A DNA stretch of 64,000 bases from assembly GCF_000143415.4 (NCBI RefSeq), contig NW_003314285.1, positions 66,311 to 130,310 on the forward strand. Reading direction: 5' to 3'. Below the pieces are notes generated by a model. The model was not told the origin of the DNA, searched no databases, and was given only the letters and a program-made list of their open reading frames with translations. The translations under genes and the position numbers were made by a program. The DNA is from Selaginella moellendorffii. Its lineage: Eukaryota > Plantae > Lycopodiophyta. Position 1 is the first letter of the stretch. Each line of letters starts with the position of its first letter. This document shows positions 7,915-43,453 of this stretch, piece by piece.

Positions 7915-8170
7915 AATGAGCTGAAGAGTTGAGTTTGTGAATTGCACTCAATTTTCAATAAATAAAATGTTCTAGATGACACTTCTTATCCAAGAATTTA
8001 AATACTTTATGCCATAATAAGGATGTTTATCAAAATATAAAATAAGATAAGATTTATTTGCAAATAAAGTATCTTGTCACTTAAATCTGTACTATGTACT
8101 TTCTGGCTTTTAAATGTTAGATTTGTCAGAATTTAAAATTATTAAAGTTGAAATAAGACTCTTTTGCAAA
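7915..8170 (-). mobile_element. Fragment of the right subterminal region of the MULE family seen at 44080-44405 and 46470-46812
   Basis: Reverse-complement similarity, e.g. ttgtcagaatttaaaattattaaa and tatcttgtcactt. Confidence 0.6.
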
Positions 8171-8805
8171 ACCATATAACCATTTCAAAGGGAGAAAACA
8201 ACTATTGATATAAATTTATTACATATAAAAGAGAAATTTGCTTCTTCTTTAGAATACATTTTTGAGAGGTTTGTTGTAATATAGTGTTTAGAATTTATAG
8301 ATTTTCACTTGCACTTACATTCAAAGAACACACAAATGTCTATTGTAATTTTTCTTCCTGAGGTAGTAATTCAAAGGTTAAAAGCTGCAACAGTTGTCTA
8401 ATTACACAACACAACAAACCCACATAAAAAATAAAAATAGAGGATAATGAGGATAGTGATAATAAGTTGGAGATAAAATGATAGAGGGTGTAACAAATTG
8501 GGTGTAAAAAAATGACTTCCTACTTATTTTAGAAAATTGCAATTTCATAACTTTCAAGAAATGCTCTATACATTTTTTGGTTTTTGGTAGAAACAATAGT
8601 GATGATCAATATGATGGCATATATACTCTTACGACATATGATAACATCATACCTCTAAAAGATAGTCATGAAATATTTTTTAAGATGGTAAAGACAAAAA
8701 TGGAGATATACAAATATTATAGATAGTATTGTAAAAAAGCACTCTCAAGTATATAAAATAAAAAGTATGTCTTTTAATTAATTATATAAAGTAAGTTTAT
8801 ATTAA

Positions 8806-9770: not shown

Positions 9771-10163
9771 TGTGAGGGCCAAGTGTACGGCTACGATGCC
9801 GTATACTAATATTAGCGTAGTGGATTTTGGTAGCCGTCGGATTGGTTTCAATCCGGACCACTCGCTCCTGTATATAAGCTAGGGTTTTTGGGCTAATTGA
9901 TATGCACATTTCTGTATTCCCTTTCCATATTCCAGGCACTCACATTGGTGGAGGAAAGGGGCACCTTTGATTGTCCCTGAGGAGTGCTTGGATTTGGGAT
10001 TTTGGTTTAGATCTAGCTTTTGCATCGTCTAGATCTAGCTTTTTCCATTTCCTTTCTTTTTTCTTTTGGTTTAGATCTAGCTTTTTGCGTTGTCTAGATC
10101 TACCATTTCCTTCTAGCTTTTTGTCATCTCTCTTCTTTTGCTCTTTCTTTTTCGCTCATCTTC

Positions 10164-11096
10164 ATGGCAGATCTGCAATCTCCTCCTTTGACTCTGGAGC
10201 AGCAGTTGGTACAATTGCTTGATGCTATGCGCTTGCAATTGAACAACCAAACTCAGTCGATGGCGGCGTTCACGGCACGTGGTACAACTCCTCCTGCTTT
10301 TGGTGCTAATCCTCGCGTTCAGCCGGAGTTCTTTCGCGGGAATCCTAGGGATGATGTGTACCATTGGTTCGATCACTTCACGGTGATTGCCACATATCAT
10401 TCTTGGGATGATGCTCGACGTTTGCGTGAGTTTCCCACGTGTCTCCAAGGGACGGTGTTGCAGTGGTACAATGGTTTGAGCGCAGCCACTCGTGGGGATT
10501 GGGGTGTTCTCCTGGACGTCTTCAAACGCGCCTTCAGCCATGCCGATGATTGTGATGATGCTTTCCAACAATTGCATCGTCTTCGCCAAGGGCCATCTGA
10601 GTCGGTGATGCAATTTGGCGTTCGTTTCCGAAGTCTTTTGCTTCGTGCGGAGCCAAATATGTCGGAGCGGATCAAGCTAGGAATGTTGTGGCCAGCACTT
10701 CGTCAAGATCTTGTCGGACTTGTGCATGCACTTGCTCCTGCCACCCTTGACGATGCTCTTCGCTTGGCACAATGTTATGAGACGTCGCCTCTTCCACTTC
10801 TCGCTGCACGTCCTTCTGCTCCCCTTCCTATGGGTGATGGTCCTATTCCAATGGAGGTTGATGTTGCTGCTGCTCGAGTCCAAGGACAAGCGCGAGGACG
10901 TGGTTGTGGCCGTGATGTTCGCTGCTGGGCGTGTGATGAAGTTGGTCATACTTATCGGCGTTGCCATTGTTTTCCGGATTGGCGACCTCCATTTTCTGGG
11001 TGGAGACCTTGGCGTCAGCAACGTCCCGTGGGTGCTGCTGTAGTGGAAGGTCTGGACACCGAGATGCATCCGGGAAACGAGGAGTCGCGCGAGTAA
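10164..11096 (+). CDS. gag: Gag (retrotransposon capsid, PMEVD motif, CCHC knuckle)
   Basis: 310-aa ORF with LRQGPSESVMQF, PIPMEVD and CWACDEVGHTYRRC. Confidence 0.93.
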   Translation: MADLQSPPLTLEQQLVQLLDAMRLQLNNQTQSMAAFTARGTTPPAFGANPRVQPEFFRGNPRDDVYHWFDHFTVIATYHSWDDARRLREFPTCLQGTVLQWYNGLSAATRGDWGVLLDVFKRAFSHADDCDDAFQQLHRLRQGPSESVMQFGVRFRSLLLRAEPNMSERIKLGMLWPALRQDLVGLVHALAPATLDDALRLAQCYETSPLPLLAARPSAPLPMGDGPIPMEVDVAAARVQGQARGRGCGRDVRCWACDEVGHTYRRCHCFPDWRPPFSGWRPWRQQRPVGAAVVEGLDTEMHPGNEESRE

Positions 11097-14000
11097 TGGA
11101 GGGACCTTGCGCGAATAAATCAGTGACCCCTCCATCTTTCTTTCGGGAATATCATCAAGGGGTTCACTCGGCACCGGTTCATCCCGTGTTTACTTTCCAA
11201 GCTCGTTTTTATAACAAGAGGTCTCCTATTATTCTCTCCGTGTTGGTTGATACAGGTTCGAGTTTATCTTCTATTGCTCGACCTGTTACCACACGTTGTC
11301 GTCTACACTTGCGTCGTGCGGCGGAACCAGTTTTCATTCTTTATGGCAACGGCCGTACACATGCATGTGCACGGGATGAGGTGGACCTGGTTGTGCGTGT
11401 GGGCGATCTCGAACTTGAGTTGCAGTCGTTGCGGGTGGTGCCGAGTCAAGCTTTTGACCTCATTCTTGGTATGGATTGGTTGCAGCGCAATCATGCCAAG
11501 TGTGACTTTGAGGCTTCTCCCCCTTGTCTCATACTTCCTTATGTTTCATCCATTCCTCTCACTTTCATACCTCTTCGTCCCTCTACTTCTACCTCTGCTT
11601 CCATTACTTTTGTTCCCCCACTCTTTCCTTCTGTGTTTCCATCTTGTTCTGCTTTTCCCTTTTCCGATCCCTCCGACGATCTTTGTGTTGCAGCAGTTGA
11701 CCGGCTCATGAAGGAGTATTCTGATCTCTTTGAATTTGACCTATCGTCTGGGGCCAAGATTGCCACATGTCATCCGATTCCAACCGGGGATGCTCGTCCA
11801 ATCAAGATTCCTGTTCGTCGTCGGTCACCTAAGGAGATCAAGATTTTACGAGCCAATGTCAAGGAAATGCTGGAGAAGGGTGTTATTCGGAAGTCGCGGA
11901 GTCCTTGGGCATGTGAACCTCATCTTGTGACGAAGTCTGATGGGAGTATTCGTTTCTGCATCGACTATCGCCCGTTAAATGAAGTGACGATCCCAGATGT
12001 GTATCCTCTTCCTCACACTGCTGATCTCTTAGATCGTCTGGGGCGAAGTCGTTGGTTCACCAAGCTAGATCTTGCTTCTGGGTATTGGCAAGTACCGATG
12101 GCCGAAGAAGATATTTCTAAGACTGCTTTTCGTACACCATTTGGTTTATATGAGTTCTTGGTGATGCCGTTTGGTTTGAACAATGCTCCCGCAACTTTCC
12201 AGCGGATGATGGACGAGGTTCTTTGCGATATGCCGGAAGTGACTGCTGACTTCATTGATGATGTCTTGATCCACTCGGAGGGGACGTGGGAGGAGCACGT
12301 TCGTGATGTTTGTAAAGTGTTGGATCGGCTATGTGATGTTGGTTTAAAGCTGAAGCGGTCAAAGTGCTTGTTTGGGTCCAAGGACACAACTTATCTTGGG
12401 TACTGTATTTCTCGTGAGGGTTTGCAAGTTGATCCTGACAAACTTGTGGCTGTTCTAAAGTTCCCTACTCCGAAATATGTGAATGATGTGCAGCGTTTTT
12501 TGGGTAAGGTGCAGTATCTCGGTCGTTTTGTGGATCATCTTTCCGATCGCACTACACCATTGCGAGCGTTGCTGAAGTCATCAACGTCATCTTTCATTTG
12601 GTCTCCGGATTGTGAGTGGGCGTTCGTGGATCTCAAAGAGCTATTGACGACTCCTCCGGTTTTGGCATATCCTGACTACACTCGACCTTTTATTTTGCGC
12701 GTGGATGCTTCTGACATTGGTCTTGGAGGTGTGTTGATGCAAGAGAGCTCGAGTGTGCCTGGTCAGTGCCATCCCATTGCATACATAAGCCGTATATTAC
12801 AACCAGCGGAGATGAACTACTCCACGACGGAGAAAGAGTGTTTAGCAGTAGTCTGGGGTTTCGAGAAACTTCATGCATATCTACATGGTTCTCGGACGTT
12901 ACTTGAAGGTGACCATGCTACTGTTACTTCATTATTGAAGCGGAAGAACCTGGTTGGTCGTACGGCTCGATAGGCTTTGAAGCTTCAGATATATGATTTC
13001 GATGTTGTTCATCGCCCAGGGAGTTCTATGGCTGATGCTGATGCCCTTTCTCGAGCTCCTCTTCCTTCTCCACTCACTTCTCATGTTTCTGACGAACCTG
13101 TTGTTCCAGCATCTGTGGATTTTCTAGATGAGGATTCTGTGCCGTCGGCAGTTGCTGTCCTTGACGTTCAGTGTCCACAGGGCGTAGAGCAAGATTTAAC
13201 TTCTCTTGATGAGGTTCGCGAGGCTCAAAAGATTGAGCCGTGGATTCGAAGGCTTCGAGATGGGTTTGAGAATCCTGCATCACTTGCTGATGACTTGCCT
13301 TTCCGGCATTTACATTCTCAATATCGCCTTGAAGATGGCCTTCTTTATTTTGTGGGGACGGATCCTGATGATCATTTACGGTTGGTGGTGCCTTCGGTGT
13401 TTATTCCACAGTTTCTCCATGCCTACCATGATTCTCCTGTTCTAGGTGGGCATATGGGACACTGTCGTGTCACCGAGAAGTTGCGCAGGTCTTTCTATTG
13501 GCCAGAGATGCGACGTGATATTATCCGATATGTGCGTAGCTGCGTTTGGTGCCAAGCTCGTAATACTCCCCCTTGTGCTGTGGAAGGACGGTTGGAGTCA
13601 ATTGCAGTTTCCCGTCCGTTTGAGTTGGTGGCGTTTGATCTTATGGGACCTTTTCCACGATCGACTGCTGGCAATGAGTATGTTATTATTGCTTCTGACT
13701 ACTTGACTCGTTGGGTGGAAGTTGGTGCTCTTGCTAGCGCCTCTGCAACTGCTGTTGGATACTTCCTCCTCAATCGAGTGGTGTTCCAGCATTCTTGTCC
13801 AGAGCGGATTCTTTCGGATAATGGTCCTGCATTTATGGCTGAGGTATTTCATGTTTTGACATCTCGGTTGGGGATACGCCACACTTTTACGAGTGCTTAT
13901 CATCCACAATCAGACGGTCTGGTGGAACGGCTTGTTCGGACATTCAAAGGGATGATTGCGAAGTATGTGAACTTTCAGCATTCGGATTGGGATGGTTATT

Positions 14001-14560
14001 TGCCGTCTCTTTGGTATGCCTATGTCACAGGGGTGCAGAGTTCTGTTGGTGCTTCACCATATAAACTTCTATATGGTCATGATCCAATATTACCAACAGA
14101 GCTGGGTTTACCTTCGCGATTGCCACGAGCTCCTGATGCTAGGTCATGGGATCAGTATTTAACAAGCATTCTTCCATTTGTCCGAGCAGAGTCTGCCGAA
14201 CACTTAGGCCACGTACAAGTGGGACAACAACGGCGCTACATCTCCCATCATCGTCCACCTGCGGAGTACAAAGTGGATGATTTGGTGTTAGTCCGCTTTC
14301 CCCATCTTACGGTACGTGGTTTATCTAAGGGGCTCCTTGCGCAGTGGAAAGGACCGTATCGGGTGTTGCGGCAAGTTGGACCACAAGTTTATGAGGTTCG
14401 GCATGACGTTCAGCAGGCCGATCCTCCGGAGATTGTGCATGTGCAGCGGTTAAAACGCTTCATACAAAGGGATCAGGAGCAGTTAATACTGTCTACAGAT
14501 CCGCCGATGCCTCCTCCTGACGTTCCTCCAGATCCTGGCCCATCTACAAGAGAACCCTAA
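10961..14560 (+). CDS. pol: Pol (PR-RT-RH-IN) in the -1 frame, interrupted by one TAG at 12971-12973
   Basis: LVDTGS protease; RT motifs LDLASGYWQ and FIDDVL; RNase H VDASD...EKECLA; integrase HHCC, DLMGP...SDNG...ERL; GPY. The stop replaces the conserved W of 'ARWAL'. Confidence 0.93.
11072..11078 (+). other. -1 ribosomal frameshift slippery heptamer G GGA AAC
   Basis: X XXY YYZ pattern in the gag frame just before the gag stop. Pol lies in the -1 frame. Confidence 0.8.
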
Positions 14561-18500: not shown

Positions 18501-19103
18501 TCGAGCATCTTCATCATTCATATTTTTAATCATAATGCACTTTTGAGCAAATGCCTTAATGTAATGCATAAGGTCCCCATGTTGCTTCAATTGCCACAAC
18601 TTTTAGTTTACCCTTTTTCAACACAAATTTGGCACCACCAAGTTTTGGCATGATTGCTAAGAAAGGACTATGCATATGCAACCTTTGTATGATCATCTAC
18701 GTCTGTTGCTATAAAATAGTTATTCATAATATAGACCCAGTCTTCCAAAACCTAATAATCCTATATACTTCTGAAATTGAGAGGTTTTGGGGGTTTGAAC
18801 TTTGAAACTCATGCAAAACTTCATTATCTTTAGAACTTGAAGAAAAATTCAACTACTAGGTTTTGCGGATTTTGCTAGTTTAGCTACCTCATCTTCTTTC
18901 TTCCTCCCTTTATTCTCCTTCTTCAATTTGTGAATTTCTTTCGTAAATTCTTGATCTCAATGTCTTGAGTTGATTAGAAAAGTCTTTGTGTATTGAGTTA
19001 GAAATTCCAATAAAAATTTGGATAAGAATCACTAAGATAATTCCTCTAATATAAGATATAACGCACCTAAATTTGGAGCTAAACTTCAAGCCTATTATGC
19101 TAC
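15560..19103 (-). mobile_element. Decayed chromovirus-type gypsy element; its 5' LTR is split by the Sola-like transposon (remainder 31374-31635)
   Basis: Remnants of gag (18375-18800), protease (~17880), RT (ELPPSCEIDHQIK, 16700-17357), RNase H and chromodomain (PEYEVGSIMDSR, ~15700). Degenerate PBS at ~19042-19053. Confidence 0.8.
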
Positions 19104-19531
19104 AAGCTCTATTTCGTTAAAGTGGGAATTGTCATTATCCCACTTGTAAAATAAGGTTTCCAAACCTTTATATAGTATATAAATATAACAAAATTCACAT
19201 GCCATTTTATTTTAAACAAGGAAATGTCTACTCAATCACTTCTCCTCCCCCTGCCACTGCTTCACCTCTCTCTTCTCCTTGTCATCGTCATCCAATTTCT
19301 TTCCATCCTTTTAATATTGGCTCAGTTGCTCCGAGTCTAGGTGGAGCCCAAGTCCCCATTCAATCTTTACTTTCCCCTTATTAATAAAACAACTTCATAG
19401 ACTTCCAATAACATGCTGTAACACTTCTAGTATAATGCAAATCCTCTCAAAGAATTGTCTTTTAATATTAATACAATGGCATGGAACCCCATGCCATAAT
19501 AAGTTACATTTTTAAATAAATACATACCATC

Positions 19532-20394
19532 TCAGACTGTTATTTTTTGCCTCCAACGCCTATACAATAATCTTGGAATTTCATCACTCTCCACACTATC
19601 AGGATTTAAACCCAATAGTAATGCCATCTCTTCTCTAATACGTCCACGCTCATGTTCAGTGGTCGAAGAACCCATCCGGTTGAGCAGATTATGGAGATGC
19701 GGATAGTGCTTGGCTAGACAATATACATGCCATAAATGATGACTGGTGTCTGTCCGATCAAATGGCTTCTGATATACCGTTCCATCTGCCATTTGGTTGA
19801 TTTCTGCAGCCACCTCCTGGACTGGCCGGTTCTCTATCACCATCGCTCCAAGACGTTTTGCAAGGTCCCCCAGAACATACGGTTTCTTCTCCCTAGTTTC
19901 CATACTGCAAGAGATGGGGTGCACTGCATATGTGTGCGTGTTCGCTGCAGTTTTAATCGGCGAGTCATCGATGATGAGGATTTCACTTGAGCTAGCAGTC
20001 CGGTTCATCGCTACAGCCTCTGGCTTGACGAAGATGGGCTTGCTACCCCTCACATGGACCATAGTCAAGCAATCCTCCTGCGTTAGGAGAAAGTCAAATG
20101 GTAATATTACTCGCGTCTGATCGTGCATCATCTGTAGCAACGTTAATGCATTGTGGCGCATCATGGATGTCCAAACTCCCAATTGCAAATTGAACCCGGC
20201 CCTCTGTTTTAAGTGTCGCATGGTCATTATTAGATCCCGCAGTTTCTCCCGTGTGATTAATGTGAATCTGTCTCTTTTGACCAACTTGCGACCGCAGGCT
20301 TTGGAGGGTGCAATGACATTCGAGGACGAGCCACGCTCATGGGAGAAAAGGACACCGTTTAGATCAAAAACGATACAGTACCTTCGCCGTGACT
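19532..20394 (-). CDS. FCP1/NIF-like HAD phosphatase domain (last exon of the cargo gene)
   Basis: Motif I DLNGVL, motif II GVWTSM, FVKP, motif IV IIDDSPIK...HP. Confidence 0.8.
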
Positions 20395-23300
20395 CTGAAA
20401 TGAAATGCGTCAGCATAAAAAATGGTACAAGTCAATTTTACCATCTACAATATTAGCGAATGTTGCTCCCGATGGTCGTTGAGAGGGTTTTGGTCGAGGA
20501 AACGTGAAGGGCGGAAATACTCTCCTCTGCAATGTGGGGTCAATCGCATCCGATGGCGTGTGGGCACATGCCATTTCAGCTGTAGACTCTGGTACAACTG
20601 GCTCAATAGTGGCATGGGGTGGTTCCGATGGCGTGTGATCACACGCCATTTCAGCTGGTGCCTCCGTTGGCAAAGTGGACATGACCGAACAGGCAGCAGG
20701 GGCGGTGTAGGGAGGTTCCAACGGCGCGTAGTCAGACGATTGGGCACACGTTGAGTCCGTTGGAAATGAGGATACGACCGGCTCGGCGGCTGGGGCGGCC
20801 TCATGTGGGTCCAATGGCGCCTGGTCACCGTCAGTTGGATACGTGGACAAGATTGACTCAGTGGTATGGGCAGCATCAAGTGGAGCGTGGTCAGCTTGCT
20901 TGGCGTTGATATGGATAGTAGCCTTCACCAGCTCTGATGACTCTTGCAGCCAAGTAGAGTCCACTGGCGGATCCATATGCATGTCCAAATATCTCCCTTC
21001 GATTGAGATGGTATCCTCCCGTGCTACTAAAAACAAACTCATTAGCACATTGAATCGACTATACTATATTTACCATCAACTGCTATTGAGGAACTAGGAC
21101 CGATATCACTTGGGCGCACTGCTGATTCTGAAGGATTGGACATACGTTTCGACCCTTGCTTGGCACTATCCTTCCTCGACACTAAAGGCTAGAGTTTGTA
21201 AATTCAACTGAATAATCTCTACTTACCATTTGCTCTGCGACCTACATGGACAATGTTAGAAATGGTAAAAGGTTAGGAATGGATGTATTATTATTTACCT
21301 GATGGTTTGTCTTGTATGACCTTCCTCCGCTGCTCTTTGGCCACCTCAGGCTGGCCATCGTCGTCATCATCGTCGTCGTCGTTATTGTGATCGTCACCAT
21401 TGTGAGGACCATCCAAGTCCTCTTCGTCCTCCTCTTCTTCGTCCTCCTCTTCTTTGTCCTCCTCTTCGTCCTTCTGCTCTTCCTGCTCATTATCTTTCTC
21501 TGGCTCCTCATCCCCCTCCTGCATTTCTTCCATAGGCTGCTCAGGCTGGATGGCTTGTTCTTCCAGGACCATCTTGGGAAAATCATCTGGCCGAGTCTCC
21601 ATCTCAAAATACAAGACATCCATAGCCTGTTTTAGTGCGTGACCTAGGACCGTATCCTCACCCGACTGTCTTAACATGGTTTCTGCACGTTCTTGCACCC
21701 TTCGAAGACGACGAGATGAGAAAAACATGGCCCTGACTTGAAAAGCTTCCCTCATCCATTGTACCTCTCCATTGAGATTGGGGAAGGGGAGTCTGCCATA
21801 GGAATCTGAGTCATGAGGTGGTGACTGCTTGCTTTCACTCAGCCCTTGATCTGCAATGAATGGCATGAGCACACATGCCATAACCGCGAGGCATTACCTA
21901 TCATCTTTTCGTTGCCCTTCTTCCTTTTCGAATCAAACGCCTCTGATCTCGACGACTGTCCAACGTGCTTTCGCTTTTTATGACCACTGTCAGTTTGAGC
22001 TTGGCTGGTGCTTGCCTGTTTTGCCTTTGAAGAAGTTTCTCCTGCAAGGAATGGCATGAGACCACACGCCATTGCAAATATAATTTGTACCTCCTTTTTT
22101 CCTATTGCTTGTCTGTTTGTCCTTCTTCGATGCGCCACCAGTGCGCTTTTCAGTCCTCGTGTCTAAATATTCACAACGATCTATAATCAAAATGGCGTGA
22201 GGCCTCACGTGACCTTACCTTGTGCAGGTTGTGAGCTCGGCCCAACATGGGTATCTTCAACAGTAGCTGTTAACGCCGTTTCAGCATCTGGGGGTGGCCA
22301 CGCTCCTGCATACAGAGCTTGTGAGATAACATTTAAACTTAAAGTGCGTACTCACCAGGTTCGCAGAGAAGATACTGTTTTTCTTTGGCAACTGTAATTA
22401 TATGCTCCATTGAAGTCACCTCTTCAATGGAGTTTGTCACCGCAACACACGGGACACCCTTGAGTAGTGCGGCTCGAAAGAATAGTCCGCCGCAGTTGTA
22501 CTCGACAATGCATTTGCCCTTGGAGTCGGAAGCAGGTGACCCACCCGCTATTGCGTTGAAGACCCAGCTGAGCATTTCCCATGCTGCACCTGGAGCTTTC
22601 TTTGGATTCGAAAGCTCCATAGCCGTCTTCAGTTCCTCAAGCACGGGTAAATTGACCTCCCTCAGATCAATTCGATTGGCCTTGTCGAACGAAGCTGGGA
22701 AGTCACTCCAGTCCCACTCTGCTGCAGGACCAATAACAAGGGCGAGTGTGAAGATGCGGACATTCGTCGGTATCTCCTCCTTAGCCATTATCCCATGGAT
22801 CTCCCGCATCTCCTTGCCTTTCAACCGAGCCTTCACCTCGTTCAAGGCCTTCCAGAACTTGTGATAGGATTCGGAGTCGTAGATCATATAGTGGACTGAA
22901 GATTCCACCTCCGCAAGTCCCACCATTAAGTCAATGATGGAGCTGACTTCGTCTGCATGAGTGATCTCCTCGTTTGTGAAGTCCATCACACAAAAGATGT
23001 TCTTGACCTGCTCATCTCCGCGGGAAACGATGCTCCTCCACCTTTGATCCTCATCCGAATTCACGTATACCCGGTAAGGTTCTCGATAGGCCTCTGCTGC
23101 GGGGTCGAGCTGTTTCTGAAGCCGGCGGTCGACATCCCTCTTAATGAAATTTGGATACTGATCCAACTTCTCAGCTTTACTTTTCGTGGCATCCCGCAGC
23201 AGATCGATGAACTTGGGGGCCCCCTTCACGTAGTCGTCGATGTCTTCATTTGACAACTCCAGCGCTTCCATCATCTCTTGCGTGGTGTCGATGCTCACCC

Positions 23301-25154
23301 TCTCCACGGCCACTTGCTCGAAGATCCAATCCTTCAATAGCGCACGAGCTCTCAGAGTCGTGCACAAGTCCTCGTATGTCACAATATGGCCGGGAGTCAT
23401 TTTGGTCTTGTTGAAGACTACCTCACCACGTAGAAGAGCATTAGCCACTGTCAGAAGGTCGTCGTCGTCTAGAGACCGCGAGAAACGTAAGGCGTTGAGC
23501 TTCAAATCATTGGGCTTCCGGCCGTCCTCCACACCCATTGAGTTTGGCAACTCCCCGTCATGGTACCTCCTCAGCACATCTACCCATTTGTCAAAAACAA
23601 CTTTTGTCGCGAGTAGAATGTTATGGATGCTGAGTGTGTCATTGACCCCCAGTGTTTTCGAGAGAAGACTCGAGAATTCCTGCAATGGAAATGGCGTGAG
23701 GCCACATGCTATGCCACATACAACGAGGCTTACCTGCCAGGCGCTAGTTGCTAGTGCACGTCCTTGTCCTGGTTTTTGTGGCTTCTTTAGTTGAACCCAG
23801 AGCTTCCGTGTTCGTGCCAATGTCTCGTGCAGACCCGATTTGTAGCACGTTTCTTGCTTGACATTCTGCGCGTGGGAGATGTATATGATAGATCGGAGGG
23901 GCGAGTTGCCTTTTATCAGGCGGACAACTCTTGTCTTGAAGACTTTCTTCACCTCCTCGCCCACCATAATATCCACAACTATCTCTTGCATCGCCAAGCT
24001 AGAATGCTGCCCGGAGACGGCATAGAACCGGATGTTCTGATCGTCCAACACCTTCCTATTGATCAAGTCTGGAAACCTCATCTCGCCCTTCATTTTTTGG
24101 TAGTAGGGGATCACGTCTGCGATGTCGGGTGTTACTGGACTTGCCAGCATCTTCTGCTTCAATTTCTCCACCCACTCATCAGATACTAGCCTGTGGTTGT
24201 ATTTGCTTTGGATGTCGATACAGCTCACGTCGATTGTATATACTTTGTTGGAATAGTAACAAGTACTATTATCTGCGACAATTTTTGCTGCCTCTTTTTG
24301 CTCTTTCTGCTCTTTGTGGCTCTTCTTTTTGGTGGGTGTAGTGTTCGAACCCGAGGCAATGGCATCACTGAGTAGCTTCTTTTTTGGAGCAGGAGAGTCG
24401 GACGTCGGCTTGAGCTTGACCACCCTTTTCTGCTTCGAGGTAGTTTCCAGATCGACCCCCTTCCCCTTTGCTTCGCGAACTGGAGTCACTCTCAACGGCT
24501 CAATGTTGGAATATAGTTTTTGAACATCGCCGTAGGTGAGGTCCGTGGATTCCATGTGATCTTCATAGACCCGCAGCGTCTTTGAAATTGTGGGCCTCTT
24601 GGACAACCTCTCCCTAGCTCCCTCTAGGAATTCCTCATAGCCGCTGCCCCCCTCCGGGAAGCCGCTAGGATGTGCAAGGTGGATCTTGAAGGCAGACGCT
24701 GTCTCTACCACAAGTGCCAGTCCATATTCTTGCATGGAACTGCATGGAGTGTCTGTCACTTGGATGAGGATCCCCATGCATTCTTTTCTCCCACCATCTG
24801 TGTTGTACAGCCTCAGATCCTCGCCTTCCATCCCGAAAGTCCAACTGGTGAGCTCCTCCCCCTTCTCTGCATCCACATTGACAGTGGCTGGAAGAAGAAC
24901 GCAATTCCTCGCCTGTTCAGAAATGCACAACAATTAGAGCTGACAGATGAAAAGCTAGTAGCTGGAAATAACGTGAGGCCACACGCCATTCACCACTGCA
25001 TCAGATGTCTTGAGGCTGCATCCTAAGATGGCGTGAGGCTACACGCCATCTGTAACCGGACTGCACTCGAGAGCCCAATCGGTGCATGCCAATGTTGCTA
25101 TTGAATGGCATGTGGCCTCATGCCATTTTCTACTTGGCCTAAAAGACTTACCAT
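19532..25154 (-). CDS. Multi-exon transposon cargo protein (~1643 aa): ParB/Srx-like domain + degenerate MTase-like region + acidic/Pro linker + FCP1/NIF-type HAD phosphatase
   Basis: Manual GT-AG splicing: 25154-25152, 24912-23734, 23679-22356, 22305-22219, 22162-22091, 22041-21898, 21850-21299, 21241-21227, 21181-21074, 21026-20442, 20394-19532. Total 4932 nt, in frame, no internal stop. Motifs: RFYAVSGQHSSLA (ParB-like); IVEYNCGGLFFRAALLKGVPCVAV (MTase motif I-like, weak); IVFDLNGVL, VWTS, IIDDSPIK (HAD). Confidence 0.8.
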
Positions 25155-26285
25155 TTGAAGCCGAATGGAGGCGTGACAACCGGACTCGCTGGCGAATGTG
25201 CACTGTGTGTGCAGCGGATCGTAGCAGCAAGGCTACTCTGCCACTTACAGTTGGAGAGTGGCGCTGAAATCTCCCGGGACGCCAAGTGGGCTGCGTGTGG
25301 GTGGCGGAGTGGGCGGCGGAGTTGGCGGCGAAGTTACAAACTGGGTGTGTCTTGAAATGGACACCGATGCACACGAGCGCGAGTACGAAGCAAAATGCAA
25401 AACCTAACCTCACACGCGCGAAATGTCACGACGGTTGGTAATCCCGCCACGTCATCATTCCTCGGACTTGGGCGCCACCATTAATTTCTGGATCGGCGCG
25501 CGCATGCGTGAAATCCAAAAGAAATCCGCAACGTCATCATTCCTCGGACTGCATGCACGCGAAATCCTAAAGAAAGATCATGATTGGGATATCATTTAAT
25601 ACCCTCGCTATATTTATACCATGCATGATTGGATATTCCAAAGCATCTTGTATTTCCAAAAATGCCAGATGTTCAGCTAAATAAATTGTCAGAGGATTTG
25701 ATGTGACGTTCAAGCGTGTGGGCTCATGCAATTTTGATCCCAAAAAATGCACCAAAAAATGCTCGGCGTCATTTGGCGTTATCTCTTGAATGGCGTGGGG
25801 CCGCATGCCATTTTCAGGAGCACATAGGAGTATATTCCTAGAATATTCTGACACGCGCGAGATTGTTTTGAGTTTCCTGGAGATCCAACCGTTAGATCGC
25901 AACTAGATTTTACAGAATGGTATACAATGTCCTTCTTGATGACCCTGCAAAGAAGCATCTCGATTGGACACCACATGAGACCACACGAGCCTTACAATGT
26001 TTCAGGGGCATTTGCCATAGATCCGACCGTTATTTTGCTCCAAGATTCTACAGTTTGGTGTGCATTGACCTTTCCATCGACACTGCAAAGGGACATCACA
26101 ATCAGATGCCGGATCACAAGAAACCAACTTCACTAACTCTGGTTTCACCAAGATCTATGTAAGGAGTTATGAAATGAAAGGACCCTCTCTATTGAAATGT
26201 GTTTATGGTCCTAGGGGCATTGTGACATATCAAAGGATTTTGCATCAAGTTCTGTATTTGCATGTTTATCAAGCTACTGAATTGC

Positions 26286-26316
26286 TAAACCCTAAACCCT
26301 AAACCCTAACCCTAAA
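26286..26316 (+). repeat. Short plant telomere-type (AAACCCT)n / telo-box tract
   Basis: ctaaaccctaaaccctaaaccctaaccctaaa lies in the divergent intergenic region. Confidence 0.7.
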
Positions 26317-27611
26317 CATGTGGCAAATGCTGCGTGAAGAAAGATGCCCTTTCTGGGCAAATGCTGTAAGAGGCAGATTCCGAGCAGATGTATCTCAGGC
26401 CAGTGAAGGGGACAAACGAAAGCTAGCTATAAACATGACGGGATGCAAATAGATTACTAGGCTGGTCCTGCGAAAATCAAAAACCATAATTGAAAACATT
26501 GAAAATGCAAAAAGAAAGGTTTATAATATTTTTGAATTTTAAGCAACCAAATGAATGTAAGTAGGGCATGTGTTTGTAAGTTTAAAAATGCCTCAACCAC
26601 TTAAATTCCCAAGTAAATAAAGCTGTTTCTATTTTTGGTACAGGTAAACTTTATAGCGTGTGGGCTCATGCAATTTTGAACCCAAAAATGCACCAAAAAA
26701 TGCTCGACTAGCATTATTCTTTGAATGGCGTGTGGCCTTATATTGCCATAAATGGACGTACACACACAGCATAATTATTCCTTTACATGGCGAATAATCT
26801 TGGCGCGGATCGCTGACATGGCATGGCAAAGTTCGAATCACTGACATGGCACAGCTGGATCGAGGCAAGGACATGATGTGACAAAGTTCAACCTCCGACA
26901 GCAAAGTCTAGAAGCTACTCAGTTTGAAATTTGTCAGAGGAATCATAAGATCTGGTTTGTCAGAGGATTTGATGTGACGTTCAAGCGTGTGTTATTTTTG
27001 AATTCTCGAACTCATTCCTAGGTCTATCATTTTTGTGCGCCGTGTTCTTGGTTCCGCTGAGCACAGTGAGCGCTGCTTGTGTAAGCGGCATTGTGAGCTG
27101 TGGTTTATGCGTCTACAAGCGGTTGCGGCATTGCGAGCGCCATTGCGAGCGGCAGTTTATGCGAGTGGCAGTTTGTGCGAGCGGCGCTACGAGCAGTTGC
27201 GGTGTTGCGAGCGGCGCTACGAGTAGTTGCGGTGTTGCGAGCGGCACTGTCTTTGGTGTGGCTACCGCTTCCTCTTGATATTCGGCACTTGTGCTTCCTG
27301 GTATGTTCACCATGGAATGGTTTAGGACCACATTTAGAAATGGCATGAGGCCACATGCCATCTTGGGCCCTTGCAATTTCATGGCTAGCGTATTGTCATG
27401 TATATTTTTACTTGCCTGCAGCTGTGTGTATATCAAGATGGCATGAGGCCTCATGCCAATTTTGTGAATGCGAAATTTCACGTGGGTGTCAATAGCATGT
27501 TTGAATAATGGCATGTGGCCTCATGCTATTGAGGTTGTTTGGTATGTTATGATTTAGGCCATTCTCCAATCATTTTTTGTATGGTCTTAACTTCTTTTCT
27601 GCACTTTCAGA

Positions 27612-30600
27612 ATGGCCTTCAGGGTTGGGGAAAAGGTTTACATTTTGAATGGTGGGAAGAGAGTTGCAAAAGGGACCCTTGTGTCTATGGATTGGAACTT
27701 TGTTATACACTGTCAAAGGCTTGGGGAAGGCAATGCTGCTGTATCAGTAGAGACTGTCTTCGATGGGAATGTGGTCGCTATTGAACGAGGAGAGATGGTC
27801 GTCGGGGTAAATGTTGTTGTTGCCTTGAAAAATCTGTAGAAGAAAGCAGATGTTGGGGACAGCGCAAGTGCGACGCATGTTCCCTCCGTGGATCTTAAGA
27901 ACCGTGCTACATGGATTCAGGCAAAGGTGTTTCTAAATAACCCCGAGGGGGAGGTGGTAGCTGAGGGCTTAGCCATAGTTGTCGATCCAAGAGATGCGGT
28001 TGCTAATCAAGAATTGGGCTGGGATGATATTGGAGTTGCGATTTTAGAGGTTGTTGACACAGAAGAAAACAGTCTGACTATTGGAAGCATTGTGCGGTGG
28101 AAATTGAGGCACTTAGTGTTTGAGAATGTGAAGGATTCACAATCAAACACCACTACAACTGATGACAGAACATCTCTTCATGGGAAAAGAAAGTACACCT
28201 TCCTAAAGCGCAGCCAAAGGGATCTGAGCAACGAACCGAAAAGGCAGAAAATGGCGATGGAGGTTCGAATGGTCTCGACAGTTGCTTGTTGCAACAGGAG
28301 GTGCTGTCAACATGCTGATTGGGATGCTATTGAAGAGGAGAGAGCAAGATACAAGACATTGTCCTGGAAAGCAGCTCGCAATTTTGTGTATGAGGCATTA
28401 CGGTCATCTGTTGATGCTTCAGAACATCAGGTGGGGGGCATGGTCTTCCAGAGGGGTTTGGTCTGCATGAAGGCATGGAGAATCATTTATGGAGTCCCTC
28501 GAACCACATTCTACAGAATCAAAACTGAGTTCGAGGAACAAAGGGTTCAACAGGCAGTCCATGGGAATGACGGTACGCACAAAACCAGGGGTCATGTTGT
28601 ATATGGAGAGGCAATCTTCAAGAGGTTTGTCGAGACATGTAGCGAGCAGCAACCACATAAAACCCACCTCTTGGAAGATGGAACACGAGACACCCAACGA
28701 GTTCTCCCTTCCATGTATACCAAGGGGGCCATATTGGAAGATGTGAATCGGGAACTCCAGAGTAATGGCTACAGGAAGCTGAGCCAATCTAGATTTAGTA
28801 GATTGTGGAGCAACAGGTTCAGGGATGTGAGTATAGGAAAGTACTCCAGCTTTTCAAAGTGTGACGAGTGCACTGCTATCAAAATGGCTTTGTCGAAGAA
28901 TTCTTGCAGCGCTCAAGAGCGAGAGACGTTGGTTAGAAGGCGGCTCGACCACAACATCGAGCAGAGAAGCTGCAGGACTGCATATTATCATAACAGGATT
29001 CTCTCCATGGAGAGACCTGACTCTTACCTCTGCATCATCCACGACAAAATGGACCAGAAAAAGACGTGCTTACCTCGACTCAATCCTGCCCCCAAGGCAA
29101 TCTCTTCATCCATGCAGCTGCCTGTGTCTCTGTTTGGCATAATCGCTCATGGGCATGGTGCCCAGAACTATGGGAACTTCTTTGTACCTTTATGGGGTGG
29201 CGGGGGTGCAAACATGATGATTGCGTCCCTAGCAAAACACTTAAGGTCTCTGCAAAGTGTGCAGACTGAGCTGAACGGCCAACCCTTGCATAAGGCCCTT
29301 GTCGATCGAACCCCATACAGGGTTCAGCTGGAGGAGGAGCAAAGGCTTGCAGTATCGCGTGGGGCCCCATGCCATCCCAGTGAATATGTTGGCCGTCAGA
29401 TTGTAGGGTTATCACGTGAGGCCTCATGCCATTCCGACGAGGCTGGTCGCCCGGTGAATGCACAGCCTCATCCAAACGAAGCAGAATCTCAAGGAAGTTC
29501 TTGCGGCCGATGTGGCCTTCCACCCCATCTTCTGCTCCAAACAGACAATGCTGGCAGTGAGAACAAAAACATGTACGTCTTCGCGTACTTAGCGATGCTT
29601 GTTGCCAAAGGCATATTTGAAACGGTTAAACTTGGCTTTCTCATGGTTGGGCACACTCATGAAGACGTCGATGCCATGTTCAGTCACCTGGCAGAGTCCC
29701 TCCGGCGATCCAATGTCCTCACCCTCCCACAACTCTACAATGAATTCCAAAATTGCATCAAAGGCACTGTTGAAGCTGCACTTGTGACAGAGGTTCCAGA
29801 CTTTAAGGGGTTTGTAAGAGGCTACATCAGGGATGGATCCGAAACGCTGATTGGCCACTCCAAGCCTCTTCAGTTTCATTTCAGCATGCATGACGGTGCT
29901 CCAGTGATGAGGTACAAGATGAGAGAATGGGACACAGTGTGGCTGCCAGTGGACGGCATTGAACTCTTCAAGAGAGATCCCATAACTGGGGAACCTATGA
30001 TTCCTCAGGGTTCCCCACGGCCGATGCACCCGGATGGACTCAAAGACCAGGAAAGTATAGTGGCCGGGATTAGACAGCATATTGCCTTCTGGAAGAGGGG
30101 GTTGGTGTTTGGTGGAGAATCCTATTTTAAGAGGTGCAAGCCTTTGCTCGAATACTGGGAAAAGATTATATCTGCTATCCAAAATGGGCCAGTTGTATAT
30201 GAAGAATTGGAAGAGTCCTTTTGGCCAGAACCCAGAGCACCAGATAGTAGCGGAACAATGTCCTCTGGAAATGCAGTGACAGATAACGATGTTGAGGATC
30301 ACTATTGTGAGCCGAGGAACAAGAAGCCGGATTCAGCATTCAATCCAGTACAGGTCTGCAAAGGAATGGTCGTGCTTGTCAGACCCAGTAATAAAAAACA
30401 AATGATATGGGTGGGGCGCTGCATCACTGATGCAGAGGAGGACGCGGAAACTAACTCCTTCAATGTAACTGTGGAGTGGTTCAAGCCAAGTTCCGGATAT
30501 ACGAAGGATTGCCTAGAAAAGAGATGGGTGCTGAATCCAAGGGATCCCAGCATGAGCATATCGGTGGATAATGTTGTGCATGGTTGGATGCGGAAGCAGA

Positions 30601-30753
30601 GTGCCACCATCACCTTGCCAGACCATGCAAGAGATGCAGCAAGAGCATTCATAACCCGGGTTCAAGGTGAGATTCATTAATATTCCTTTACTAAGTTTCT
30701 AATGTATTTTATTTCAAGGTGAACAATCCGAATCTGAATCAGAGGAGGCGTGA
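27612..30753 (+). CDS. Sola-like (DUF7869-type) DDD transposase with one in-frame TAG at 27837-27839
   Basis: Motifs CCNRRC, FSKCDEC, IIHDKMDQKK, LQTDNAGSENKN and FLMVGHTHEDVDAMFS. ORFs 27612-27839 and 27888-30680 share a frame. Predicted 5'UTR intron 27301-27610 and terminal intron 30667-30718. Confidence 0.85.
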
Positions 30754-31739
30754 TGGCATGTGGCCCTTTGCACTAGTATATCTTAATACCGGTCTGAGAA
30801 ATAGAATGGCATGTGCCCTCAGGCCTTTTACTAAATCACCTTTGAAAGAAATGCAAGCCTCTATGTCGTAAAAAAAAGGTACTAGAGAAATTCCTTAATA
30901 ATATGAATGTTATTTAGTTTCATGAAAATACACTAAGGGTCAAATGAGTTAAATGACTTCTCCAGACTAGCGCGGTGACTTTGTGTCCAGACTGAGTCCA
31001 TCTGGTTGTATAATAAATCTCATTGTCAAGGTGAACAAGCCGAATCTGAAGCTAAAGAAGAGCGATGGCATGCGCGCACACACTATTTGTTTGTTCATTG
31101 AGCGTGTGGTGAGCTTTCCAAGATGAACGTCATTCCTATTAGCCAGACATATAACTTAATGGTGAGAACATTTAGATATTATTCAATGTTATCTTTTTCT
31201 AACGAATCTAATTGTGAAGGTGTAGCAAGAGGCATTGCTAGTCACCATGCCCCAGATATGTCTAGCCCCTGGACAAAAAACATATAATTTCACGTCATTT
31301 TCAAATACTTGAAAATTTGTACCTAGTCCCATTTTACTGAATAAATCCCACTTTAACGAAATAGAGCTTCTACGAAATAAGGGTCTAGTAAATCCTATAA
31401 GCACCAACTCCCCATATCCAACACCTATATGCAAAATGGTGTCAGATGGTGTCTGATATGATTTTGGCATACAAGTGGCCTAATATGAGGACGAAGGTAT
31501 GCCACTAACTAGAGTAGTATGGAGCTTAAGCTTAGACCCAAGTAAAATGCAAAACAAATAGCAACATAATCCAATAGGACTAGCACAAGAGGGCTTGCCA
31601 AAGGGATCTAACTGTACCAATCTCCTATTATTATAGCAGTAAAGAGAGAGTGTCTGTAAGGATTGGTTAACAAATGTCTTTTGATTTTTTTATATCCAAA
31701 GTCACATTTGCAATAATATTATTATTGGGGAATAAACAA

Positions 31740-32205
31740 TGATAACCTTGGCAAACCTAGTTACTCTAAAAGTCTTTTACAATCTAGCAATAATAAATCT
31801 TGCTTAGTGCATGTGAATGTCCACTTTAGAATCTTAGTGCAAGGTGTTGATAAAGATGTAGCATATGCTTTCCCATTTTTCTGGCATTTAATAAATTCTG
31901 GATATAGGCAAGAAAAAACATTTTGAATGGCAATTGTGTATCCTCCACTTTCTATTATGACTATGTACTCATTTGCAAGTGCAATAATACATTTTTTGGA
32001 AAAAACCTCACACTCAAGTGTTTGAGTCAAACTTATTTCACCCTGCTTTTGTTTAGAGATGATAGTAATAAATTTTAGTGTCTTACCTTTTCTTGTTGGC
32101 CTCCTATACATCTCTGTGGGAATAATATCAGGTTTGTTGCTCATGTCTCTAACTCTCCTCTTCTCAAGATTGAAACCAAATTTCTCAAGGCTTTCAATTT
32201 CATCT
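31740..32205 (-). pseudogene. Inverted fragment of MULE transposase 3' end (SWIM region)
   Basis: ORF 31761-32144 is homologous to 42980-43360 and 45770-46180. Confidence 0.85.
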
Positions 32206-33926
32206 ACAACTCCGAAGCATCTTCAAAAGACAGTGCTCAAGGATTTTATCGCAAGCAGTTTACTTGATTCGGACTGCAAGAATACTCAACTGGATGAGGC
32301 TAGCTTGCGAGAGTTACTATGACACGTGCAACTTGCAACTAGCCTCAGAAGGTATGAAAATATTACTACATACTTTTCAATAATATCTCTCTTTTATTTT
32401 ATTTTATTTTATTTAGGATAAAATCTTGGATGTGTGAATCTCGAGAGGGGAAACTCCAATAAAAAATTGACTCAATCCTTGAACTAAAACAAACATATCC
32501 CTATGAGTTTATCCATGGGATTTTATTTCTAGATCAAGTTGTTAGTGAGCAAGAGCACCCCTTCATTTTCAAAATGTTTACTATAGGCCCCGCCTCTAGT
32601 ATGGATCTTGTTTCCCAAATGGATATGTTTGGGTCAAGTGACCTTGCTAATGCATGGGTACATTTTGACGGGGATGGTCCAAAGTTGAGTTGAGCTCATG
32701 AGTTGAGCTCAATTCAACACAAGTCAACTCAAGTCAATATAGTCAATAAGAAATATTACAAAGGAGATCTAAATTGAACAAATGAAAGTTCTAGCAAACT
32801 TTAAAATATTAAAATACGTAAATATCTAAGTTAAAAGTTTCTATAAGATTGAATTGTTTAAAAAAGACAAAGTTCATGAGAACCTATCTTTTATAAAACT
32901 ATATTATTTTATTATGACAACTATTACAGCTGTCATATTTGATTTGACTACTTAATATTTTGAATACTTTTACAGCTGTAGATACTATTCCTTCATTCAA
33001 AAGATTTTTTAGGGTTCTTGAGAAGATGGGAAGCAAGGAAAATACAAGATCTGTGAGTAAGAGTTGTAGTGCAAAGGAATGTGAGAATGTTAATTTTGTT
33101 TCACTACCACAATCTTCATATTACACTCCTGGTCCTTATTACCCATCTGGGAATGTAGAGACCACTATCACGATTGATAAAAATGCTCCTGTTACTTCTG
33201 AAACAACAGTCCAAAGCAAGAGAAATGAAGAAATGAACAGCACAAGGGAAAGCACCAAGAAATCTACTCCATAAAACTTTCCATGACATTTGTAATTTAC
33301 ATATTAATTCATATTAAAAACTCTATTGCTTGCCTATATCACAATCCTCTCATATGATAAGACCAAGGTATATTTTGCAGTGAATCCTCATTAAAATTTT
33401 TTGGGAATTGTTTGTAAATAATGATAAAAGAAATCAAAATCTTTTGAAAGACTCAAAAGTAATATCACATCAAAGAATCAACTTTATCTACATTTCCAAG
33501 ACTAAAAGGCAATCTCACATGAGAGAATGGTAGCGTGCCAACGTGCTCTACCACTATAATGTGGTCTATATTTCCTTGCAATTTATTTCCCTAGACATTT
33601 GGCATGTGTAGAAAAGAATTTATGTGTAGCAAAGTAGGATTCATCATAATGATAGAGCATGTGATAATCTAAAATTCTAGAAGCTCTTATGTTTACAAGA
33701 AAGCTATGATTATGAAGCCCCATTTCCAAAACTGACATTTAAAGAATCTGAGTATTGTCAGTGTCATAATAAATAAACCTCATTCCCAAGAATCTGAGTA
33801 TTGTCAGTGTCATAATAAATAAACCTCATTCCCAAGACTAAAACTTAGTATATAAACTATCTAGAAAAGTTATAGTCATTGTAGGTTTTTTGTTCTTCTT
33901 GAGCTCCTTAGAAGTTTATATTGAAA

Positions 33927-38577: not shown

Positions 38578-38657
38578 ACCTCGGGTAGTTTTGCTCGCCG
38601 AGGGGCCGAGGTTATTTGAATAACCTCGGCCCCTCGGCAAGCAAAACTGCCCGAGGT
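38578..38657. repeat. Near-perfect 39-bp-arm hairpin
   Basis: acctcgggtagttttgctcgccgaggggccgaggttatt-tg-aataacctcggcccctcggcaagcaaaactgcccgaggt. Confidence 0.9.
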
Positions 38658-38825
38658 GGGCAGCCCAAGCTTGACCTCGGCCAGCAAAGAAGCAATCAAG
38701 AAAAAAAAAGGGAAGCAATGGAATGGAAGCAATAGACTCAAAAAATGGAAGTGGAAGCAATCAAATCGAAACTCACCCTTGGTGGCATCTTTCCTCCCTT
38801 GATTTCTTGATCGTGCTAGATTTCT

Positions 38826-39150
38826 TGTGCGCTCAATCTCTCCCGCTCGCGCACTCAATCTCTCCTGCTCTTGCACTCAATCTCTCCGGCTCGCACGCTC
38901 AAACTTTCCCCCTCACGCGCTCAATCTCTCCCGCTCGCGTGCTCAATCTCTCCCGCTCGCGCGCTCAAACTCTCCCGCTCGCGCACTCAAACTCTCCCGC
39001 TTGCGCGCTCAATCTCTCCCGCTCGCGCGCTCAAACTCTCCCGCTCACGCGCTCAATCTCTCCCGCTCATGCGCTCAATCTCTCGATCTCTTGCGTGCTC
39101 AATCCCTTGATCTCCTTCGTGCTCAATCCCTTGATCTCTCGCGCGCTCCA
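38826..39150 (+). repeat. 22-bp tandem repeat (GCGCTCAAWCTCTCCCGCTCGC), roughly 14 units
   Basis: Seen directly, between the two divergent MULE genes. Confidence 0.92.
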
Positions 39151-43362: not shown

Positions 43363-43453
43363 ATTTCTCCAACACTATTGATGTTTATTCTCTATCAATA
43401 AAACTTATTATACTTTATATAATTAATAAAAATATACTTTTTCATTTCACTTT

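What the first reader, a model, noticed from the sequence alone, without database searches (positions are those of the whole stretch)
21851..27610. Palindromes sit preferentially in introns, symmetrically in both genes
Seen: four short introns of the cargo gene (21851-21897, 22042-22090, 22163-22218, 23680-23733) each hold one palindrome, filling ~40% of the intron. The first intron of each divergent gene (24913-25151 and 27301-27610) holds three. Four more copies are tolerated in frame within linker-like coding sequence (20554, 20629, 29355, 29412). Inference: there is selection to spread binding sites along the element without disrupting protein. Alternatively the motif acts as an RNA hairpin in splicing or was involved in intron gain.
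Basis: seen in the sequence. Interest (0 to 1): 0.8.

Follow-up and report, generated by a model that had tools for sequence, protein, structure and literature searches.

The report
Transposon parks its palindromes in introns
A 12-kb plant jumping gene carries 22 copies of its own 22-letter DNA palindrome, ten of them in predicted introns, and these are likely docking sites for a protein the element makes itself, placed where they do not disturb its proteins; related elements do the same with entirely different palindromes.

Summary
22 palindrome copies lie inside a 12.3-kb Sola1-like transposon (19104-31369) and none in the rest of the window. Ten sit in predicted introns, which are 9% of the element (p 7e-7; 1e-3 against other non-coding DNA). 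Splicing is predicted, not shown. The divergent cargo gene encodes a ParB-N fold, a beta-class DNA amino-methyltransferase fold that likely lacks its catalytic motif, and a NIF domain. Related transposons carry their own, different palindromes (24 of 80 loci, 0 of 80 shuffles), including in introns, but there introns are no richer than other non-coding DNA. No covariation or strand bias supports an RNA stem. One motif intron predates the motif. In 3 of 4 short introns the palindrome supplies the branch-point-like sequence. Best reading: self-recognition sites, as in VANDAL/VANC. The Sola1-ParB-methylase design is published for Ectocarpus, and the scan noted it in two other genomes.

The parts
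19104..31369 (.). Whole DNA transposon, 12,266 bp, Sola1-like, with ~25-30-bp terminal inverted repeats (AAGCT...AGCTT) and a 4-bp target duplication (19100-19103 and 31370-31373)
   Evidence: Inverted repeat I19; ends and flanks read; contigs of X3 and X13 start at 19104, and X13 runs on into other DNA there
19532..25154 (-). Cargo gene, predicted 11 exons, 1644 codons: N-terminal region, ParB-N-like domain, helical region, beta-class N4C/N6A methyltransferase fold (likely inactive), acidic and Pro/Ala linkers, C-terminal NIF/HAD domain
   Evidence: Exon model; NIF Pfam E 1e-5; Atlas leads; model pLDDT 68; VIA Z 9-11 to beta-class methyltransferases and Z 7-8 to ParB-N folds
27612..30754 (+). 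Transposase gene (DUF7869), predicted exons 27612-30667 and 30720-30754. This copy has a stop at 27837-27839 where laid contigs of other copies read differently.
   Evidence: Pfam DUF7869 E 6e-43; homologues at 28-42% plus one at 97%; variant table; last intron
24913..25151 (-). Cargo intron 1 (predicted, after the ATG), three palindromes at 24968, 25028, 25105
23680..23733 (-). Cargo intron 2 (54 nt, in frame), palindrome at 23691 supplying CTCAC with its A at -18; position conserved in distant homologues
22163..22218 (-). Cargo intron 4, palindrome at 22192, 5 nt from the donor; not at the branch position
22042..22090 (-). Cargo intron 5, palindrome at 22051 supplying CTCAT with its A at -16
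21851..21897 (-). Cargo intron 6, palindrome at 21860 supplying CTCAT with its A at -16
22306..22355 (-).
   Evidence: four acceptors keep the frame; 22306 chosen by length and branch-point spacing
20395..21298 (-).
   Evidence: (alternative acceptors exist for introns 7-9)
27301..27610 (+). Predicted 5'-UTR intron of the transposase gene, three palindromes at 27340, 27438, 27508; not forced by a reading frame
30668..30719 (+). Predicted last intron of the transposase gene, no palindrome
20553..20649 (-). Two in-frame palindromes (20553, 20628) in a duplicated 75-nt unit of the Pro/Ala linker of the cargo
29354..29432 (+). Two in-frame palindromes (29354, 29411) in the variable insertion of the transposase core
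25711..26746 (.). Four intergenic copies (25711, 25790, 26653, 26725), two pairs from one duplicated segment
30753..31086 (.). Three copies 3' of the transposase (30753 overlapping the predicted stop, 30806, 31065)
19476..19497 (.). One copy 3' of the cargo gene

Best explanation
The 22-bp palindromes, found 22 times inside this transposon and not elsewhere in the window, are likely double-stranded DNA binding sites for a dimeric protein that the element encodes, most likely its ParB-methyltransferase-fold cargo protein, and they accumulate in predicted introns and other non-coding DNA because coding DNA tolerates them only in loose linkers. Steps. Shown: the copies, their avoidance of coding DNA, and a different palindrome in each related family. 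Predicted: the introns and the protein folds. Inferred: binding and the identity of the binder. Speculative: the purpose, namely that the bound protein marks the element as self and counters host silencing in the manner of VANC, by occupancy or recruitment rather than by methylating DNA, since the catalytic motif appears lost. In 47-54-nt introns the site likely fits by letting its right arm double as the branch point.
For: Placement: 10 copies in introns, 8 in other non-coding DNA, 4 in CDS, though CDS is 65% of the element (p 5e-6 for CDS depletion). In 13 related loci, 2 of 94 copies lie in 33 kb of transposase CDS, both in linkers of L020. Family-specific palindromes occur in 24 of 80 related loci vs 0 of 80 shuffles (loci are partly redundant), with unrelated sequences. 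They lie in transposase introns of L020, L046 and L023. In L080, 6 copies lie in a non-coding gap inside a divergent ParB...NIF cargo gene and 4 between its first recognisable exon and the transposase. DNA-type symmetry: the central four bases, which cannot pair in a hairpin, are self-complementary in 14 of 22 copies and in 5 of 12 family consensuses (about 1 in 16 expected). No covariation (154 of 500 shuffles as high); hairpins are stronger on the sense strand in only 6 of 15 copies. Cargo folds: ParB-N and beta-class methyltransferase; both kinds recognise palindromes as dimers (established knowledge, recalled). Precedent: inverted-repeat arrays beside ParB-domain accessory genes in Plavaka elements (10.1101/2025.02.11.637652, passages); VANC motifs in introns (PMC5735166, passages).
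Against: No binding data. A cargo homologue was detected in only 4 of 80 related loci (L078 and L080, which are one element, L072 and L032). L039, L046 and L010 have palindromes with no detectable cargo in 5-10 kb upstream, which fits a transposase binder or cargo loss; the profiles used were weak. The ParB signature reads SGQHS without the arginine of GxxR (motif recalled). Branch-point overlap in 3 of 4 short introns (p about 0.005, post hoc) shows an RNA-level constraint too. The family looks CHG-methylated in one sample (inference), so any protection is incomplete or stage-specific.
Confidence: 0.5

Rival explanations
1. The palindromes are binding sites for the transposase itself, which would activate or synapse its own copies as reported for AtMu1 transposase and Spm TnpA; the cargo is incidental to them.
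For: Palindromes accompany the transposase in 24 of 80 loci, several with no detectable cargo upstream. The transposase N-terminus has a weak TNP1/EN/SPM match (E 0.004, below the cut-off). Transposases and TnpA bind clustered family-specific motifs (10.64898/2026.08.24.746577; abstract and part 1 of 3 of the main text).
Against: The loci were found with the transposase, so the association is built in, and most contigs are too short or decayed to show a cargo. The palindrome is absent from the terminal repeats, with the nearest copies about 300-370 bp inside. In red algae the arrays lie beside the ParB-domain gene.
Confidence: 0.25
2. The motif acts mainly in RNA: a hairpin that carries or masks the branch point and so tunes splicing of the cargo and transposase transcripts.
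For: In introns 2, 5 and 6 the palindrome provides the YTNAY sequence with its A at -16 to -18, the distance seen in all six motif-free short introns (-15 to -18). All four short-intron copies face so that CTCAY is on the sense strand. The copies can fold at up to -14 kcal/mol.
Against: 12 of 22 copies are outside introns, and six of the ten intronic ones are in long introns away from the 3' end. No covariation; pair 9:14 is unpaired in 10 of 17 distinct copies; no sense-strand bias. In L020 and L046 the intronic copy is not at the branch point.
Confidence: 0.11
3. The copies have no binding function: a duplication-prone palindrome spreads by local copying and is merely purged from coding DNA.
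For: Several copies are local duplicates, and relatives often hold them in tandem arrays. CDS avoidance alone follows from purifying selection on protein. In relatives, introns are not richer than other non-coding DNA.
Against: Dispersed single copies share only the 22 bp and a few flanking bases. Each family independently keeps a dyad of 16-26 bp. Fitting 22 bp into 47-56-nt introns four times is not expected from drift (4 of 6 copies in the cargo body, p 1e-4).
Confidence: 0.1
4. The palindrome, or a small unit carrying it, created the introns (introner-like intron gain).
For: Introns 2, 5 and 6 share the palindrome and a similar acceptor at the same spacing. Introns 4-6 lie in a low-complexity linker where their age could not be tested.
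Against: Intron 2's position is old. Of 16 homologues aligned (17-27% identity), 4 span it without the 18 residues, 9 end within about 30 residues of it and 3 begin just after it. L080 has an intron there with no palindrome. The 5' halves of the motif introns are unrelated.
Confidence: 0.04

Closest known systems
Sola1-1_Ec32 of Ectocarpus (PMC12477816; passages, supplement rows)
   Same: Sola1 DNA transposon with a 4-bp TSD and AA...TT termini, carrying on the opposite strand a gene with a ParB-like domain and an N4C/N6A methyltransferase domain; proposed to bind and modify its own sequence.
   Different: Brown alga; 21.5 kb, 282-bp TIR, 1104-aa cargo. The main text has no occurrence of 'palindrom', and the passages seen name no NIF domain. 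Here the cargo is 1644 aa, adds NIF, and appears to lack the methyltransferase catalytic motif. No sequence comparison was run.
Plavaka PAG3 (ParB + 2OG oxygenase) of Bostrychia and other red algae (10.1101/2025.02.11.637652; passages)
   Same: Transposon accessory gene with a ParB domain and inverted-repeat arrays beside it, proposed as parS-like self-binding sites.
   Different: EnSpm-type transposase; oxygenase as effector; tandem arrays adjacent to the gene rather than single copies dispersed in introns and linkers.
VANDAL/VANC anti-silencing system of Arabidopsis (PMC5735166; passages)
   Same: Family-specific motifs concentrated in introns, intergenic and terminal non-coding parts of the element and absent from the coding probes tested; motifs change between families.
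   Different: Mutator-like element; 9-bp non-palindromic motifs in same-orientation tandem repeats; no homology to VANC was tested or is suggested; binding and demethylation are shown for VANC and not here.
Spm TnpA / AtMu1 transposase self-activation (10.64898/2026.08.24.746577; abstract and part 1 of the main text)
   Same: Element-encoded protein binds clustered family-specific motifs.
   Different: Motifs are 10 bp and terminal; here they are 22-bp dyads along the whole element.
Bacterial ParB/parS and phage ParB-methyltransferase fusions
   Same: ParB-N fold (Z 7-8), ParB_N + N6_N4_Mtase architecture (Atlas leads at 0.79), long palindromic sites.
   Different: Eukaryotic spliced gene; GxxR arginine and DPPY-type motif apparently replaced (motifs recalled); no ParA.

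Membership tests
Sola1 DNA transposon | Terminal inverted repeats with a 4-bp target site duplication | tested here: met
   4-bp TSD listed for Sola1-1_Ec32
Sola1 DNA transposon | Sola1-type DDD transposase (profile or tree placement) | tested here: inconclusive
   DUF7869 E 6e-43 with conserved HDKMD, DN and GHTH motifs. No Sola1 reference or profile was run; the DUF7869-Sola link is recalled. Bao et al. 2009 is not held.
Transposon ParB-methyltransferase accessory gene (Ectocarpus type) | ParB-like plus N4C/N6A methyltransferase domains, on the strand opposite the transposase | tested here: met
   (best E 1.4e-3); divergent layout also in L080
Active beta-class N4C/N6A DNA methyltransferase | Catalytic motif IV (D/N/S-P-P-Y/F) | tested here: not met
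   The first core strand ends D-F-T-N. The four homologues that reach it keep D without PPY. The assignment of this strand to motif IV is inferred from the fold match and a recalled motif; no residue-level structural alignment was printed.
Active beta-class N4C/N6A DNA methyltransferase | SAM-binding motif I (FxGxG) | tested here: inconclusive
   Reads EYNCGG here and EYGCGG in P0018: recognisable but altered
ParB/parS clamp | ParB-N fold | tested here: met
   VIA Z 8.3 PadC, 8.1 Pnob8-like, 7.3 KorB
ParB/parS clamp | GxxR CTP-binding motif | tested here: not met
   SGQHS is conserved in the family instead; motif recalled
ParB/parS clamp | Specific binding to and spreading from the palindrome | not testable with these tools
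   Needs EMSA or ChIP
VANDAL/VANC-like anti-silencing system | Family-specific motifs enriched in non-coding parts of the element | tested here: met
VANDAL/VANC-like anti-silencing system | Mutator-type transposase and VANC-family protein | tested here: not met
   The transposase is DUF7869 and the cargo has ParB/methyltransferase folds. It may work like VANC but is not a member.
VANDAL/VANC-like anti-silencing system | Accessory protein causes sequence-specific hypomethylation in trans | not testable with these tools
   Needs transgenic expression and methylome data
Introner-type intron-generating element | Recent, near-identical introns at positions empty in relatives | tested here: not met
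   Introns are unlike each other outside the motif and acceptor; intron 2's position is old. Introns 4-6 not testable. Definition recalled.
Structured RNA element | Covariation and strand bias | tested here: not met
   (paralogous copies of one short motif; low power)

The most novel reading that the evidence does not exclude
A land-plant transposon lineage runs a eukaryotic parS/ParB-like self-recognition system: a ParB-fold protein with a dead methyltransferase and a NIF phosphatase-like domain loads at family-specific palindromes along the whole element to shield it from silencing. The same palindromes are dual-coded as branch points of the introns in the protein's own gene, so the DNA address and the splicing of its reader are tied together.
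Probability: 0.15. Interest if true: 0.8.

Novelty: new variant of a known kind. Interest (0 to 1): 0.52.

Why it matters
The published ParB-domain transposon accessory proteins are predicted to bind their own element, but the passages I read show no binding test, and one states that VANDAL is the only transposon known to bind and modify its own sequence. This family supplies an explicit 22-bp candidate site, and relatives supply a dozen different ones. That gives ready-made cognate and non-cognate pairs for binding tests and for studying how a protein and its site diverge together. If the cargo binds, plants have a second, unrelated self-recognition system of likely bacterial origin. The overlap of site and branch point would be a compact case of one sequence serving in both DNA and RNA.

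Tried and rejected
No genome is held for this window, so no permutation across family copies was possible. No RNA holder listed. X20, only guessed to be RNA, runs unspliced through introns 21851-21897 and 24913-25151; it may be DNA, so I count it neither way. No splice joint was listed in the runs laid. Word-index searches for cargo homologues found none; HMMER over the representatives found 18, of which 16 were aligned (P0020 and P0023, multi-stretch hits, left out). Viral contigs: no cargo relative. Single-sequence fold failed (pLDDT 33). PDB sequence searches gave one spurious hit and none; Pfam saw no domain in the ParB-methyltransferase part. tblastn of the cargo and its homologues against the 80 loci gave no hit at E 0.01. 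L072 has a divergent NIF remnant and 11 palindromes but is too decayed to map introns. The window's own motif is absent from the 80 loci (three stray hits at 5 mismatches). The depth peaks of run X2 over the introns were considered as a binding signal and rejected: they also cover a motif-free intron and track the absence of CWG sites (rho -0.83, overlapping bins). The second lay showed too few variants to test selection on the motif. Intron ends for L020 and L046 were off by one base and were corrected with no change of class. Literature searches found no paper on palindromes in introns of Sola or ParB-methyltransferase elements. The library is partial, Bao et al. 2009 is not held, and the bioRxiv supplements of the Bostrychia paper, which may describe the arrays, were not seen.


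Full report
The element. The finding lies inside a 12,266-bp DNA transposon at 19104-31369 with short terminal inverted repeats and a 4-bp target duplication. It is multicopy: low-coverage runs assemble it as contigs that start at the same left end. The right gene is a DUF7869 transposase (E 6e-43), interrupted by one stop in this copy. The left, divergent gene reads as 1644 codons once ten GT-AG introns of 45-239 nt are removed; some acceptors have alternatives. The host is a plant by its telomere-type repeat and Streptophyta look-alikes. Earlier scan notes on this genome call it Selaginella, which I did not test.

The observation. There are 22 copies of ATGGCRTGWGGCCWCAYGCCAT in the element at up to 6 mismatches, 0.4 on average in 200 shuffles, and none in the rest of the window. 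Ten lie in 1053 nt of predicted intron, four in 8023 nt of CDS and eight in 3190 nt of other DNA. That gives p 7e-7 against the whole element and 1e-3 against other non-coding DNA, or 2.5e-3 without the unforced 5'-UTR intron. Copies are not fully independent, as some are local duplicates. Splicing is predicted only. The best support concerns intron 2: of 16 homologues aligned, 4 span the position without its 18 residues, 9 end within about 30 residues of it and 3 start just after.

The cargo protein. With that alignment the model reaches pLDDT 68. Its C-terminal part matches beta-class N4C/N6A DNA methyltransferases (VIA Z 9-11, rmsd 4-5 A; Foldseek ranks them first but at E above 1e-3). Its N-terminal part matches ParB-N folds (Z 7-8), and the last exon encodes a NIF domain. 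The strand that should end in a DPPY-type motif ends DFTN, and the four homologues that reach it also lack PPY, so I infer a pseudo-enzyme; the motifs are recalled. The ParB signature is SGQHS. L080 shows the same divergent ParB...NIF gene.

Relatives. Among 80 loci found with the transposase alignment (the best 80 of 263), a de novo search finds a palindrome repeated at least three times in 24, against 0 of 80 shuffles. The loci are partly redundant. The palindromes differ between families. In 13 loci chosen for a clear motif, 2 of 94 copies lie in 33.3 kb of transposase CDS, 4 in 1.3 kb of intron and 88 in 37.9 kb of other DNA. Coding avoidance is therefore general, while introns (3.05 per kb) are not clearly richer than other non-coding DNA (2.32). 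Three of eight transposase introns hold a copy (L020, L023, L046). L020 repeats the window's pattern with another sequence: intron, linkers in frame, and 3' end. In L080, 11 copies of a third palindrome occur in 10.5 kb (0.23 in shuffles): six in a non-coding gap inside the cargo, four just upstream of its first recognisable exon, and one 3' of the transposase. The intron matching intron 2 has none, so that intron is older than the motif.

DNA site or RNA stem. There is no covariation above shuffles (154 of 500), and the innermost stem pair is unpaired in 10 of 17 distinct copies. Sense hairpins are stronger in 6 of 15 copies. The central four bases are self-complementary in 14 of 22 copies and 5 of 12 family consensuses, which matters for a DNA dyad and not for a loop. 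One result points to RNA: in introns 2, 5 and 6 the right arm provides YTNAY with its adenine at -16 to -18, the spacing found in the six motif-free short introns. Random placement gives this in 3 of 4 with p about 0.005 (post hoc). The simplest reading is packing, since a 22-bp site in a 47-54-nt intron survives if it takes over the branch point. A regulatory role is not excluded.

Mechanism. Most likely (0.50) the palindromes are sites for the ParB-methyltransferase-fold cargo, which marks the element as self and likely opposes silencing by occupancy or recruitment. The transposase as binder is the main rival (0.25), because several relatives have palindromes and no detectable cargo. A mainly RNA role (0.11), neutral spread (0.10) and intron gain (0.04) follow. 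Binding, the binder and the purpose are all untested.

What is known. Sola1-1_Ec32 of Ectocarpus has the same divergent ParB-methyltransferase gene (PMC12477816; passages and supplement rows). Red-algal Plavaka elements have inverted-repeat arrays beside a ParB-domain gene (10.1101/2025.02.11.637652; passages). VANC binds family-specific motifs in introns and other non-coding parts of VANDAL (PMC5735166; passages). TnpA and AtMu1 transposase bind clustered motifs (10.64898/2026.08.24.746577; abstract and part 1 of the main text). PMC4738411 (passages) describes ParB-fused and inactive transposon-borne adenine methyltransferases. PMC9033089 and PMC5751038 (passages) added only that Sola occurs in moss and lacked a Pfam domain at that time. 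Two unreviewed scan notes report similar plant elements with palindrome arrays, one in the first intron. My ten searches found no account of single copies dispersed in short introns, of the branch-point overlap, or of a methyltransferase-dead, NIF-fused cargo.

Verdict. A real feature, and a new variant of a known kind: it works like VANDAL/VANC or the algal ParB accessory systems, without being a VANDAL. Interest 0.52.

Noticed in passing
window 21820-22380, run X2: Differences seen only in X2, and not in X1 of the same sample, fall mostly at or next to CAG/CTG sites, and contig depth falls with CWG density (rho -0.83). This likely reflects long-read miscalls at methylated CHG, hinting that the family is CHG-methylated. 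The library type is not on record and the error pattern is recalled.
   Followed up: partly
window 19000-31500: This copy differs from other copies mostly as T for C and A for G, as expected from decay of methylated cytosines, and has a stop at 27837-27839 in the transposase; it is likely an aged copy of a younger family.
   Followed up: partly
window 26285-26317; L046 about 3830-3870; L039 about 3040-3060: Plant telomere-type repeats lie between the two genes here and upstream of the transposase in two relatives.
   Followed up: no
window 30752-30774 and L020 4152-4171: In both elements a palindrome begins at or overlaps the transposase stop codon.
   Followed up: no
window 19532-20394; L080 1734-1931; L072 2257-2394: The NIF domain keeps DLNG in place of the usual DxDxT in all three elements (usual motif recalled), so its phosphatase activity is uncertain but the variant is conserved.
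   Followed up: partly
window 25660-25920 and 26630-27010: The intergenic region contains duplicated segments of itself, and other copies skip 25685-25913.
   Followed up: no
window 10098-14560, with related pieces near 47094-48130 and 61533-62524: Gypsy-type retrotransposon gag-pol frames flanked by direct repeats, with further partial copies in the window.
   Followed up: no
window 31760-32670, 40668-46780 and 8000-8740: Fragments of another repeated element with zinc-finger-like frames, in both orientations.
   Followed up: no
window 38578-38657 and 38780-39150: A near-perfect 39-bp-arm hairpin next to a 22-bp tandem array.
   Followed up: no
L039 1782-2302 and 8396-8904: Long inverted repeats enclose a transposase and six palindromes with no cargo gene detected.
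   Followed up: partly
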